Of a stretch of 64,000 nt of DNA, positions 58,589 through 62,105 are shown piece after piece. The DNA is from Patellaria atrata CBS 101060. Its lineage: Eukaryota. Under the pieces are notes generated by a model. The model was not told where the DNA came from. It made no database searches and saw nothing but the letters and a program-made list of their open reading frames with translations. The translations under genes and the position numbers were made by a program. Every line of letters starts with the position of its first letter. Within the stretch, counting starts at the first letter, position 1. The stretch is from the NCBI GenBank assembly GCA_010093705.1, contig MU006092.1:378623-442622 (forward strand), in the 5' to 3' direction.

Positions 58589-59693
58589 ATGGTACAAATA
58601 ACGCTATCATCGTAAGCAACAGCGCCCCTCCAGACCAAGCACCACTCCAAACTAACACCCCACACACAGGCTCTGGAGCATATTCCTCTTTGTCGGCCCC
58701 ATCCTCCTCCCAAAGCTCATCGTCTTCTACCGCTCCGTGCGGAACCCTCCTCCAAACGTCCCCATCCGGCCCACCCCGCCCAAAATCAAACGCGCCCGCG
58801 GCCTCCTCGCTCTCTCAGTCTGCATCTTTCTCGCCCTGACCCTCCCCTACTTCGACCCCCCGAACATCTTCAAAGTGACCCAATCCAGGCTCCAGACGCC
58901 CACCGACGTGCTCTTCGCCCGTCTCGCCGCAACGGGCCATCCGATCACGCCCCGAGAAGAGACTCTCCGCGCGCGCTTCGTGAGCCTGGACGCCCGGCTC
59001 GCCTATCTCCAGTTCGGCCCCGCGGTCGTGGGAGACTGTCCGTTCTGCAACTCCGCGGACCCAGCGACGTGGCTGTACTTCGCGCTTCCGTCGCTACTGG
59101 CGCCGCATCTGGTGCACATATCCGTGCTGCTGCTCGCGACGTCGAGCGTCTTCGGCCCGGAGGCGCGGCGCTGGAGGTTACAGGCCATGATCGCGGGCGT
59201 CGCGCTCGCGGCTGCGGAATTGTATATCGTTGCGACGTATGATAGTAGCTATAACCGACGCGCTGTGCAAGGGGAGGCGCTGTTCCCGCTCTTTTGGTAC
59301 GCGAGGATGGTCAGACCGGTTGCCTTTTGTCTTGTGCAGTTGTCTCTCAGTTGGTTTCTTAAACTCACTGCTACAAACCGACTTTTTCCCATTCCGCCTT
59401 CCGTGGCTGAGCGACTGGAATCCCATAGTAGGCTGTTAGAGACCGTAGGCGGGAAGATAGGAGCGCTGGTGCAGGTGAGAAACGCGGTGTTCAGGGATAA
59501 GGCGCTTATGGAACGGGTGGAGGAGTACTGGAGCGAGGAGGGGAGAGTTATCAGCGAGACTCAGGAGGAAAGGGAGGTCGTGGAAAGCGTTAATCGCGTG
59601 TTGGAGAGGATGGATGTGCCTGCTCTGGAGAAGCATGCGGAGGACTACGTGGAGCAGGTTACGAAGGAGATGTTCAAAGCTTCTAAAGCTTAG
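58589..59693 (+). CDS. Conserved fungal multi-pass membrane protein, unknown function
   Basis: ATG 58589 and intron 58612-58669. Contains NIFKVTQSRLQTPTDVLFARL, YLQFGP..VGDCPFC and several hydrophobic helices. Confidence 0.8.

Positions 59694-59852: not shown

Positions 59853-59883
<31 letters not shown>
59853..59883. repeat. T13-A18 homopolymer junction; possible Pol III terminator for the minus-strand unit
   Basis: T-run at 59853-59865 directly followed by an A-run at 59866-59883. Confidence 0.7.
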
Positions 59884-60056
59884 GTTTGAAATCACAAAAC
59901 AATTAGGCCCGTAGGTCTCCTTGAATCCCCGGGCGGGTTTTTGCTGCCGCTGCTCCATTGACCTGAGGTTTACCGATAAACCCGCCCGGAGGGATTCGAA
60001 CCGATGACGTTTGCGGGGATTGTAGTCAGACTGCCTGACCGCTCTGCTATACGGGT
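59880..60056 (-). ncRNA. tRNA-derived (Arg-like) putative Pol III unit with a 3' fold-back extension
   Basis: A-box TAGCAGAGCGG, B-box GGTTCGAATCC and a partial acceptor stem. The anticodon arm is broken. An 18 bp downstream inverted repeat and a T18 tract follow. Confidence 0.5.
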
Positions 60057-60106
60057 TAGTTGAATGTTGGACGCGCCTGGATCGAATATAAGTCAATGAC
60101 CCGTAA

Positions 60107-60194
60107 ACTCATTTTAGGGGGGGATAAGGGGGTTATCCCCCGCGGAATTCAGGGGGAATGTGTTCGAGTCCCGTGGTGAGCGGGATGGCTTTTT
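60107..60194 (+). ncRNA. Second degenerate tRNA-like unit, divergent from the first
   Basis: CTCATT/GGTGAG acceptor-like pairing spanning ~75 nt, T-arm ATGTG-TTCGAGT-CCCGT and T5 at 60190-60194. There is no canonical anticodon arm. Confidence 0.3.
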
Positions 60195-60773: not shown

Positions 60774-62105
60774 CTAGACCTCCTGTACAGCGTCATGCTC
60801 CTCTTCTTCAATGATATGACCCCACTCATGCTGCTCCTTCCCATACATGATCCCCTTCAACCAACCTCTGATGAGTGTGGTAACCATCCCACCCATTCCA
60901 TCCTTCCCCATCGGAATTTTGTAATCCTCGCCCCTGAACGTGACCATTTGCACCGGCGCGATGAAAAACGCAGTCCCGCACGCCAGAGCCTCGACTAAGC
61001 GTCCCTCTCTAGCTGCTTCAACCATCTCGTGCATATAGAACTTGCGCTCCATGATCTTCAAGGCTGGTAGATCAATCTCCAGGTTGGAATCGTAGTAACC
61101 AGATATCAGTCGTTGTCGCGCGAGTTCCAACACTGATCTTCTCGTAACTCCGTCTAGAATGATGCGGCCATGGAGGGGTGCCGTAACTAATTCCAACTCA
61201 CCCTCCTTCGTCTTCCACACTACAAAGAAATTGCTCGCCCCCGCTTCCGTAACCTCGCATTTCTCACCGAAGAGCCATAGGATCTGATGATACCCCTTCT
61301 TCTTTGCCTCACCTTGAGCTAGCAAGCTAGGCCCGTAATTCGCACCGACTTTGGCGTACCCAAAACCCCCGGGCCAGGCGCGGACCATATCGTCTTGGGA
61401 GGCGAGGAGATTCATGCCGATATTAGGGCTACTGGAAGCGAGATCGGGAAAACATGTGAGGATGATGTAGAGGAGTGCCTCTTTGGGTTTTTGGACACCG
61501 AGGGCGGGATCGTTGGCAATCATAGTCGGGCGGACGTAGAGGAAGCGCCCAGGATATTTCTTCGGTAGCCATTTCGGTCCATCTCGAGCACATAGTGCCT
61601 CGACTAACTTGAGCAGTTCCTCGGGAGGGAAACCAGGAAGTGCGATCCGAGTCGAGGAAAGGAGCATACGTGCACAGTTCAAGTTCGGCCGGAACAACCG
61701 CAATTTGCCGTCGTACCCGCGATATAACTTCATTCCCTCGAAACATTCGGTTGCGTAGTGCAGGACGCTCGCGGTCGGCATGAGGGATAGGGGACCGTAG
61801 GGGTGGAGGTGAGGCGCTTGCCAGCCACCGTTGAGTGTCCATTGGCAGGTTATCATGTGGTCAGTGCAGCATTGCATGGACATGATTTCGGGGCTGTTTG
61901 GTTCGGGTACAAGTTTCGGGGTTTGGGAGAAAGTTATGCGAAGCAGAGAAGCATCCAACTCCGGTAGAGGTGTTGAGACTCCCTCGACGCCATTTGGTAG
62001 TGCTGATGAGGTAGATGTGGAAAGGGAAGACGTTATGCCATTGTTGGTGAGTTCAGTAGTTGTAAGGTCCGAAGATCCTTCAATTGGAATAGCAGATGGT
62101 GACAT
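60774..62105 (-). CDS. Branched-chain amino acid aminotransferase (PLP class IV)
   Basis: LHYATECFEGMK, LYVRPT, RAWPGGFGYAKVGANY (PLP Lys), TEAGASN, ILDGVTRRS and CGTA. The start is probably MSPSAIP at 62105. Confidence 0.93.
   Translation of the reverse strand: MSPSAIPIEGSSDLTTTELTNNGITSSLSTSTSSALPNGVEGVSTPLPELDASLLRITFSQTPKLVPEPNSPEIMSMQCCTDHMITCQWTLNGGWQAPHLHPYGPLSLMPTASVLHYATECFEGMKLYRGYDGKLRLFRPNLNCARMLLSSTRIALPGFPPEELLKLVEALCARDGPKWLPKKYPGRFLYVRPTMIANDPALGVQKPKEALLYIILTCFPDLASSSPNIGMNLLASQDDMVRAWPGGFGYAKVGANYGPSLLAQGEAKKKGYHQILWLFGEKCEVTEAGASNFFVVWKTKEGELELVTAPLHGRIILDGVTRRSVLELARQRLISGYYDSNLEIDLPALKIMERKFYMHEMVEAAREGRLVEALACGTAFFIAPVQMVTFRGEDYKIPMGKDGMGGMVTTLIRGWLKGIMYGKEQHEWGHIIEEEEHDAVQEV

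What the first reader, a model, noticed from the sequence alone, without database searches (positions are those of the whole stretch)
59880..60056. tRNA-derived Pol III unit whose 3' extension folds back onto its own T-arm and acceptor strand
Seen on the minus strand: intact A- and B-boxes and tRNA-Arg-like sequence (GGTCAGGCAGTCTGACTAC), but the anticodon and T stems are broken, so it cannot be a working tRNA. About 37 nt downstream, 59923-59940 is an 18 bp inverted copy (2 nt bulge) of 59978-59997, followed by a T18 tract. Inference: a ~175 nt hairpin Pol III RNA. It could be a microRNA-like precursor (Pol III and tRNA-linked milRNA precursors are known in Neurospora), a SINE, a TFIIIC-binding boundary, or an undescribed ncRNA.
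Basis: partly seen in the sequence, partly recalled or inferred. Interest (0 to 1): 0.7.

Follow-up and report, generated by a model that had tools for sequence, protein, structure and literature searches.

The report
Dispersed fungal Pol III RNA family
This hairpin-forming, tRNA-headed stretch is one of about 22 scattered copies in a fungal genome that keep a TATA box at a fixed distance upstream and a conserved loop, so it looks more like a family of small RNA genes than a jumping repeat or a microRNA precursor, but no RNA has been shown.

Summary
The 18-bp inverted repeat, the A/B boxes and the T18 run are real, but the unit is not unique. It is one of 23 copies on 16 contigs of this fungal genome.

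Against a SINE: copies have no target-site duplications and no likeness to the retroelement flanks tested. Of 22 copies, 16 carry a TATA-like word at -31..-24 against 7.5% background, and 10 carry an upstream CACGTG. The leader inside the unit takes 16 forms in 21 copies while the motifs on either side barely change. This points to selected Pol III genes.

Against a microRNA precursor: the loop is better conserved than the arms, and the long stem shows almost no covariation.

No Rfam match and no relative elsewhere was found, and there are no expression data. Best reading (0.55): a lineage-specific family of ~165-180-nt Pol III RNAs that present a conserved loop to a protein. The scan noted similar Pol III-type units elsewhere in this genome; look-ups by sequence found none.

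The parts
60087..60090 (-). TATA box, -29..-26 from the inferred start; palindromic
   Evidence: TATA-like word at -31..-24 in 16 of 22 copies vs 7.5% background. At least 5 of 6 A/T at -30..-25 in 20 of 22 vs 17.8%. A U6-like gene of this genome has TATA at -30..-27.
60055..60061 (-). Conserved start motif AACTAAC; inferred transcription start near 60061
   Evidence: 6 of 147 letters differ from the majority; three columns are invariant in 22 of 22 copies. The start is inferred from TATA spacing and was not measured.
60050..60054 (-).
   Evidence: 33 of 56 letters differ; 16 different forms in 21 copies.
60039..60049 (-). A box
   Evidence: 20 of 231 letters differ across copies.
60024..60040 (-). 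5' hairpin (6 bp, 5-nt loop) in place of the D/anticodon arms
   Evidence: 91.2% of cells paired; 9 changed cells keep pairing and 11 break it, so it is predicted but not shown by covariation.
60003..60023 (-). Variable pyrimidine-rich linker
   Evidence: Length varies by more than 20 nt among copies.
59992..60002 (-). B box, overlapping the 5' arm of the long stem
   Evidence: 14 of 188 letters differ.
59978..59997 (-). 5' arm of the long stem
59941..59977 (-). 37-nt apical loop, more conserved than the boxes and stems
   Evidence: 32 of 759 vs 122 of 1458 mismatching letters, Fisher p = 2.0e-4.
59923..59940 (-). 3' arm of the long stem
   Evidence: 1 of 15 pairs with a two-sided change.
59905..59918 (-). 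Small 3' hairpin (5 bp, UNCG-type loop in 10 of 21 copies); one pair is mismatched in this copy
   Evidence: One pair occurs as G-C 9, U-G 4, C-G 3, G-U 1, U-A 1, unpaired 2, gap 1; 18 changed cells keep pairing and 6 break it; loops listed.
59866..59899 (-). Terminator zone: first T4 at 59899-59896, T18 at 59883-59866
   Evidence: The first T4 lies at or just past the unit's end in 20 of 21 copies. Short T-runs follow tRNA genes of this genome as well.
60162..60194 (+). Divergent B box (60162-60171) and T5 (60190-60194) on the other side of the TATA box; role unproven
   Evidence: A reverse B box lies at -75..-101 in 4 of 22 copies; background 4 in 50,160 nt. The upstream stretch is single-copy.

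Best explanation
The locus is one member of a lineage-specific, dispersed family of about 22 small RNA genes built on a tRNA-type (A box + B box) promoter with an added upstream TATA box and, in about half the copies, a CACGTG site.

Shown by sequence: copy number, fixed TATA spacing, uneven conservation, no target-site duplication.

Inferred from established Pol III biology: TFIIIC binds the A/B boxes, TFIIIB binds the TATA box, Pol III starts near 60061 and stops in the T4/T18 zone, giving an RNA of about 165-195 nt.

Inferred fold: 5' hairpin, pyrimidine linker, a 15-18 bp stem, then a small 3' hairpin. The stem ties up the T-arm so the RNA cannot fold as a tRNA.

Inferred function, the weakest step: the stem presents the conserved 37-nt loop to a protein, as a decoy or scaffold RNA, and is not cut into a small RNA. 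The family probably spreads by DNA-level duplication with about 80 nt of upstream flank and loses copies by decay.
For: 23 copies on 16 contigs.

Promoter: TATA-like word at -31..-24 in 16 of 22, binomial p = 4.6e-14 (window chosen after seeing the alignment). CACGTG within 150 nt upstream in 10 of 22 vs 3 in 27,500 nt, and in 0 of 12 5S and 1 of 30 tRNA flanks. The one copy with no A/T at the TATA position (L078) is also the most diverged. PMC7279448 (passages) reports such boxes and upstream factor sites for type-2 ncRNA genes and random sequence there for SINE copies.

Flanks: residual upstream likeness in 60 of 210 pairs at -80..-1, 22 of 210 at -80..-33 without the TATA, 0 of 210 at -300..-161. 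Three 5S genes here also share their upstream flank.

Conservation: leader 59% variable between motifs that are 4% and 9% variable; loop twice as conserved as boxes and stems; four pair types plus a wobble at one pair of the 3' hairpin.

No TSD; no match to 30 reverse-transcriptase loci.
Against: No transcript was seen. The long stem is not shown to be under selection for pairing: 19 changed cells keep pairing and 27 break it, and wobble-making vs pair-breaking transitions are 31 vs 23. The tree is a star (15 of 18 inner branches open, none starred), as after a burst of copying, and copies average only 82% identity vs 92% for 5S. Agreement between upstream and body similarity is weak (Mantel r = 0.30, p = 0.029; not significant for either sub-segment). 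The best upstream pairs reach 57-73% against a shuffled baseline of 55-62%, so part of the upstream likeness may be shared promoter constraint and not descent. This copy lacks CACGTG. No relative was found outside this genome, though no close genome could be searched. No partner protein is known.
Confidence: 0.55

Rival explanations
1. A tRNA-derived SINE: copied through RNA by a LINE enzyme and now decaying. The upstream TATA would come from insertion into sites already bound by TFIIIB, or from survival of the copies that landed there.
For: tRNA-sized A-to-B spacing (47 nt here), 154-190 nt length, low-complexity T-rich 3' end, star tree, neutral-looking changes in the long stem, 78 reverse-transcriptase matches in the genome. 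Fungal SINEs of 11-160 copies are described (PMC5063351, Introduction). A divergent B box shares the TATA in 4 of 22 copies, which could mark older Pol III sites.
Against: No TSD above control in three windows (own means 5.19, 5.29, 6.38 vs 5.23, 5.30, 6.50; 21 copies). No repeat of the start motif downstream in 21 of 21. No shared A-tail. No likeness to 135,340 nt around 30 RT loci (best E 0.59). 22 of 23 copies keep the 5' end. No intact tRNA gene within about 1.5 kb of any of 23 copies. A family-enriched CACGTG at about -62 to -75 and a saturated internal leader are not expected from neutral decay.
Confidence: 0.2
2. A Pol III precursor of microRNA-like RNAs (Neurospora milR type): Dicer cuts the long stem and loads one arm on Argonaute.
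For: The stem is real (z = -2.95) and about 91% of cells stay paired across copies. Neurospora milR-1 to -4 are Pol III transcripts with downstream T clusters, and milR-1 needs TATA-like elements (PMC3547838, passages).
Against: Only 15-18 bp with a bulge, shorter than a 21-22-nt duplex (recalled). The loop is more conserved than the arms, the reverse of a precursor. Arms carry insertions and deletions, and one copy has lost 12 nt of the 5' arm. No intact tRNA is present for the RNase Z step used by milR-4.
Confidence: 0.08
3. A non-autonomous rolling-circle DNA element (DINE-1/HINE type) that carries a Pol III cassette.
For: No TSD, T-rich 3' end, and a short hairpin with compensatory changes a few nt after an inverted-repeat arm, as described for DINE-1 (PMC2374699, passages). 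DNA-level copying would explain the shared upstream flank.
Against: The partner of the 3' arm lies 65-85 nt inside the unit, not at the 5' end. No inverted repeat between either candidate 5' end and the 3' end above control (means 5.2-6.1 vs 5.0-5.8). The CTRR-like word overlaps the hairpin stem and is followed by more conserved sequence. G-U pairs and a UNCG-type loop suit RNA better (recalled).
Confidence: 0.07
4. A DNA-level element: TFIIIC/TFIIIB landing sites acting as chromatin boundaries, with the RNA a by-product.
For: A box, B box, TATA and start motif are among the best-kept parts; extra reverse B boxes in 4 of 22; this copy lies between the 3' ends of two convergent genes.
Against: The apical loop, which is no known promoter element, is better conserved than the boxes and stems taken together, and the 3' hairpin covaries.
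Confidence: 0.07
5. A derivative of the SRP (7SL) RNA: the loop descends from the 5' end of the SRP RNA, as Alu-like elements do in mammals.
For: With lenient gap costs the loop aligns to the first ~50 nt of this genome's SRP gene better than to nearly all background windows (0-3 of 2330 as good for 4 of 5 copies); copy L077 stays at 0-3 of 2330 under all four scorings. The SRP gene also has ACTAAC at its start.
Against: Under the two strict scorings the match vanishes for 4 of 5 copies (163-1894 of 2330 windows as good). A profile of the loop does not list the SRP locus among 51 hits. Rfam SRP models do not hit three copies at E up to 10. A normal SRP gene exists elsewhere.
Confidence: 0.03

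Closest known systems
[quoted passage not shown]
   Same: Internal A and B boxes, a TATA-like box at -31/-24, an upstream factor site, T-run end; 4.5SH and 4.5SI arose from SINEs.
   Different: No sequence relation shown; fungal; about 22 dispersed copies; upstream site is CACGTG at about -62 to -75, not CRE near -50; no transcript shown.
Fungal tRNA-related SINEs: AfuSINE2, MgSINE, Foxy, nrs1 (PMC5063351, abstract and sections 3 and 16 read)
   Same: tRNA-type head that cannot fold as a cloverleaf, unrelated body, 140-500 nt, low to moderate copy number.
   Different: AfuSINE2 have 4-14-bp TSDs and degenerate boxes; here no TSD, intact boxes, a fixed upstream TATA and uneven conservation.
Dictyostelid Class I RNAs (PMC7919456, abstract and section 8 read)
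   Same: Multi-copy, lineage-restricted small RNA class recognised by a conserved upstream element, a stem and a conserved unpaired motif amid variable sequence.
   Different: Class I RNAs are about 60 nt, their stem joins the 5' and 3' ends and covaries strongly, and they are shown to be expressed; an analogy only.
Neurospora milR-1 to milR-4 precursors (PMC3547838, passages read)
   Same: Fungal Pol III units with TATA-like elements, a hairpin and a T cluster.
   Different: milR-1 has no A/B boxes, milR-4 comes from intact tRNA-Ala genes via RNase Z; here the stem is short and the loop is better conserved than the arms.
Dispersed 5S rRNA genes of the same genome
   Same: Scattered single copies on many contigs; some share upstream flank; decayed variants exist.
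   Different: Different sequence and promoter type; 5S copies are more uniform (92% vs 82%) and have no CACGTG upstream (0 of 12).

Membership tests
tRNA gene | Cloverleaf with acceptor, D, anticodon and T stems | tested here: not met
   ARAGORN 0 in the window and in 23 copy loci; Rfam tRNA not hit.
tRNA-derived SINE (SINE2) | tRNA-type head with A and B boxes | tested here: met
tRNA-derived SINE (SINE2) | Head traceable to a particular tRNA | tested here: inconclusive
   Head of copy L008 aligned to 30 of the 39 tRNA matches: several score alike, driven by the B box. No tRNA-Arg(ACG) gene was recovered.
tRNA-derived SINE (SINE2) | Dispersed multiple copies | tested here: met
   23 copies on 16 contigs.
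tRNA-derived SINE (SINE2) | Target-site duplications | tested here: not met
   No excess over control in 21 copies; old TSDs can decay.
tRNA-derived SINE (SINE2) | Unrelated flanks, random sequence at -31/-24 | tested here: not met
   TATA-like in 16 of 22, CACGTG in 10 of 22, residual upstream likeness.
tRNA-derived SINE (SINE2) | 3' end shared with a LINE | tested here: not met
   nhmmer on 30 stretches around RT matches, best E 0.59 (these cover about 28 of 78 matches); the genome-wide DNA search found only family copies. Not all SINEs have this feature (recalled).
tRNA-derived SINE (SINE2) | Presence/absence polymorphism with clean empty sites | not testable with these tools
   No second strain or close relative is held.
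Type-2 promoter small-RNA gene (4.5S/vault/VA kind) | A and B boxes plus TATA-like box at -31/-24 | tested here: met
   criterion from PMC7279448.
Type-2 promoter small-RNA gene (4.5S/vault/VA kind) | Upstream transcription-factor site | tested here: inconclusive
   CACGTG in 10 of 22 copies, absent in this one; binding untested.
Type-2 promoter small-RNA gene (4.5S/vault/VA kind) | Discrete Pol III transcript | not testable with these tools
   The two runs found are probably DNA.
milRNA precursor | Stem long enough for a 21-22-nt duplex, arm conserved over loop | tested here: not met
   15-18 bp; loop 4.2% vs boxes and stems 8.4% mismatches. The criterion is recalled.
milRNA precursor | Dicer/Argonaute-dependent small RNA | not testable with these tools
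   No small-RNA data.
SRP RNA | Match to an SRP covariance model | tested here: not met
   the real gene scores 121.1 bits at another locus.
7SL-derived element | Robust homology to SRP RNA | tested here: inconclusive
   Depends on scoring.
DINE-1/HINE rolling-circle element | Subterminal inverted repeat at the 5' end matching one near the 3' end | tested here: not met
   criterion from PMC2374699.
DINE-1/HINE rolling-circle element | Short 3' hairpin, no TSD | tested here: met

The most novel reading that the evidence does not exclude
A previously undescribed class of abundant, regulated fungal Pol III RNAs: about 20 genes, half under a CACGTG-binding factor, whose RNA uses a fold-back over its own T-arm to avoid tRNA processing and displays a conserved 37-nt loop to a protein partner. 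It would be a cellular fungal counterpart of VA, EBER or vault-type decoy RNAs. At the outer edge, the loop could descend from the SRP RNA 5' end, which would make it a 7SL-derived family in a fungus; my search for that returned 0 papers.
Probability: 0.3. Interest if true: 0.72.

Novelty: new variant of a known kind. Interest (0 to 1): 0.48.

Why it matters
The Pol III transcript set of filamentous fungi beyond tRNA, 5S, U6, SRP and milRNAs is poorly charted, and units like this are usually filed as SINEs. Here the flanks separate the two readings: a fixed TATA box, an enriched upstream site and uneven conservation mark a maintained gene family. If expressed, it is a new small-RNA class with an obvious handle (the conserved loop) for finding its protein partner. 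The same flank tests can be applied to the other tRNA-headed families noted in this genome. If it is not expressed, it is a modest repeat family with an unusual link to Pol III promoters.

Tried and rejected
Rfam: nothing at gathering score in the window; only chance-level hits by E-value for this copy, L077 and L006.

SRP identity: first suspected from a recalled likeness of the loop to SRP helix 8; rejected because the real SRP gene lies elsewhere and the loop does not align to that helix. The likeness to the SRP 5' end depends on the scoring.

tRNA-Arg donor: 17 pattern hits, none a tRNA; a gene with an intron would be missed.

Pairing with 5S rRNA: a 12-nt antisense match over the A box beats 40 of 40 shuffles, but the shuffles destroy the A box, and the A-box variant in about 6 of 21 copies, this one included, breaks the pairing. 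Not accepted.

Relatives: one metagenome scan with a 19-nt loop pattern gave 7 loci, none with matching flanks (5 of the 7 scored with the model, best E 0.59). A viral-contig scan gave 0. The prokaryotic genome collection was not scanned.

Expression: no RNA holder listed; both runs are probably DNA contigs, so they say nothing on expression, and their summed depth is no copy number.

Terminal inverted repeats and Helitron ends: not found. RIP signature: C>T changes are not concentrated at CpA.

Paper searches listed no description of this family; I judged most hits from the listing only, and subscription journals are missing from the library.

Rows left out: L020 (3' part is N) and L079 (decayed) from the alignment; L079 from the promoter counts; L083 from the 5S flank test.

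Full report
OBSERVATION. The window is fungal. Its neighbours are a gene of unknown function with ascomycete homologues (58656-59693, +) and an aminotransferase class IV gene ending at 60774 (-); the unit lies between their 3' ends. On the minus strand I read an A box at 60049-60039, a B box at 60002-59992, arms at 59997-59978 and 59940-59923 that pair exactly with a 2-nt bulge, a 37-nt loop, a T4 at 59899-59896 and T18 at 59883-59866. The stem region folds better than shuffles (z = -2.95, 2 of 200); the whole unit does not (z = -1.22 and -1.70). It is no tRNA and matches no Rfam family.

IT IS A FAMILY. A DNA search of the own genome gave 24 matches: 23 copies on 16 contigs with E at most 1.1e-8, this one included, plus one self-match of the T run. 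Twenty-two keep the 5' end; one (L079) is decayed but still scores 35.7 bits with the family model. Twenty-one were aligned (L020 left out because its 3' part is N). Mean pairwise identity is 82% and the tree is a star (15 of 18 inner branches open). No copy has a tRNA gene within about 1.5 kb (0 of 23), although the genome has normal tRNA genes (39 matches), dispersed 5S genes (13 matches), U6 and an SRP gene.

THE FLANKS CARRY A PROMOTER. Anchored on the start motif AACTAAC, 16 of 22 copies have TATA, TAAA or TTAA within -31..-24 against 7.5% of background windows (p = 4.6e-14; the window was chosen after inspection), and 20 of 22 have at least 5 A/T in -30..-25 against 17.8%. The spacer between is about 33% identical. 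A U6-like gene here has its TATA at -30..-27, which supports a start near 60061. CACGTG occurs within 150 nt upstream in 10 of 22 copies against 3 in 27,500 nt further out; it occurs upstream of 0 of 12 5S and 1 of 30 tRNA genes, and I saw none upstream of two U6 loci or the SRP gene. A longer pattern drawn from these copies hits 24 places in the genome (reversed control 9), 6 of them directly upstream of copies; this test is partly circular. This copy lacks CACGTG and instead has a divergent B box at about -100, as do 3 others at -75 to -101. Upstream likeness among copies extends to about -80 (60 of 210 pairs above the 99th percentile of shuffles; 22 of 210 without the TATA; 5 of 210 at -160..-81; 0 of 210 further out). 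Against over-reading this: the correlation with body similarity is weak (r = 0.30, p = 0.029), and best-pair identities of 57-73% stand against a baseline of 55-62%. Three 5S genes share upstream flanks in the same way. PMC7279448 (passages and Table 1) reports TATA-like boxes and upstream factor sites for type-2 ncRNA genes, and random sequence at that position for SINE copies.

NO MARKS OF RETROPOSITION. Longest direct repeats between upstream and downstream flanks equal the cross-copy control in three windows, the start motif is not repeated downstream in any of 21 copies, and the A13 after the T18 is private to this copy. The genome has 78 reverse-transcriptase matches, but profiles of the family find nothing in 135,340 nt of 30 stretches around them (best E 0.59). 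Terminal inverted repeats are absent.

CONSERVATION IS UNEVEN. Mismatches to the column majority are 6/147 in the start motif, 33/56 in the leader, 20/231 in the A box, 14/188 in the B box, 24/347 and 37/420 in the arms. The leader has 16 forms in 21 copies: a few nearly saturated bases between two well-kept motifs, which neutral decay from one master would not give. The loop has 32/759 mismatches against 122/1458 in boxes and stems (p = 2.0e-4). The long stem stays 91% paired but only 1 of 15 pairs changes on both sides; after a local register fix 19 changed cells keep pairing and 27 break it, and wobble-making transitions (31) do not clearly exceed breaking ones (23). The small 3' hairpin (59918-59905) does covary: one pair occurs as G-C, U-G, C-G, U-A and G-U, 18 changed cells keep pairing and 6 break it, and 10 of 21 loops are UNCG-type. 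These counts are cells, not independent events.

HOW IT MOST LIKELY WORKS. Shown: copy number, promoter layout, uneven conservation, no TSD. Inferred from standard Pol III biology: TFIIIC on A/B, TFIIIB on the TATA box, initiation near 60061, termination at the T4 or the T18, giving 165-195 nt. Inferred: the fold-back ties up the T-arm, so the RNA avoids tRNA processing, and the 3' hairpin guards the end. Weakest inference: the stem displays the conserved loop to a protein (decoy or scaffold). Spread by DNA-level duplication with decay of some copies (L078, L079) fits best. Confidence 0.55. Rivals: SINE with targeted insertion or later selection 0.20; milRNA precursor 0.08 (short stem, loop better kept than arms, no intact tRNA for the RNase Z route described in PMC3547838); rolling-circle element 0.07 (3' hairpin and no TSD fit PMC2374699, the 5' subterminal repeat does not); DNA boundary 0.07; SRP derivative 0.03. 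On the last, the loop aligns to the SRP 5' end under lenient gap costs (0-3 of 2330 windows as good for 4 of 5 copies), not under strict ones except for L077, and not by profile search.

COMPARISON AND NOVELTY. It is laid out like type-2 promoter small-RNA genes (4.5SH/4.5SI, vault, VA, EBER) and resembles Dictyostelid Class I RNAs as a multi-copy class with an upstream element and an unpaired conserved motif (PMC7919456, abstract and section 8). It is a member of none by sequence. It fails the TSD and random-flank tests for fungal SINE2 (PMC5063351, abstract, sections 3 and 16). Eight paper searches listed no description of it. No relative was found in metagenome or viral contigs, but no close fungal genome could be searched, so lineage restriction is untested. 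Earlier notes of this scan describe several tRNA-headed Pol III-type units in the same genome, mostly read as SINEs; whether any is this family cannot be told, and look-ups by sequence or relatives returned nothing. They are leads, not support.

VERDICT. A real feature and an undescribed family, most likely a maintained set of small Pol III RNA genes; expression, partner and function are unshown. New variant of a known kind; interest 0.48.

Noticed in passing
window 60116-60194 (+): Possible divergent ~80-nt Pol III unit sharing the same TATA box: a G/C hairpin, a B box at 60162-60171 and T5 at 60190-60194, no clear A box; single copy. Reverse B boxes at -75..-101 also lie upstream of L002, L005 and L009, all without CACGTG.
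   Followed up: partly
L124 (G000:C6:115564, minus strand, about 230 nt downstream): An unrelated Pol III-type unit with CACGTG, a TATA box, an A-box-like word, a weak B box and T-runs; suggests CACGTG is used by more than one family.
   Followed up: no
L185 1501-1597 and L186 1501-1650: Two U6 loci: a divergent intron-less U6-like gene with a downstream B-box-like word, and a canonical U6 with an intron that holds the B box.
   Followed up: no
L091 and L092, from 1501: Two 5S variants whose first ~25 nt are replaced by a shared different sequence while the rest is intact.
   Followed up: no
L084, L085, L086 upstream of 1501: Three dispersed 5S genes share 90-170 nt of upstream flank; L080 and L083 have identical flanks.
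   Followed up: partly
L122, L123, L129, L132 from 1501: A separate repeat of about 110 nt holding CACGTG and ending in a shared word, possibly solo LTR ends.
   Followed up: no
window 60039-60050 (-) and 5S genes L080, L085: The family A box is a 12-nt antisense match to 5S rRNA, longer than in 40 of 40 shuffles; the A-box variant in about 6 of 21 copies breaks it.
   Followed up: partly
L021 1776-1790 (-): The SRP gene start also carries ACTAAC followed by AGCGGTCA, like the family head; the head alignment was not significant.
   Followed up: partly
G000 reverse-transcriptase matches (L138-L157): Many copies are broken by TAA/TAG stops and sit in A+T-rich, TpA-rich DNA, as expected from RIP; the family copies sit in ordinary gene-rich DNA.
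   Followed up: partly
G000:C17:129608-129899 (L049): Two tRNA matches in tandem about 80 nt apart.
   Followed up: no
window 59853-59883: T13 directly followed by A18 on the + strand, private to this copy.
   Followed up: no
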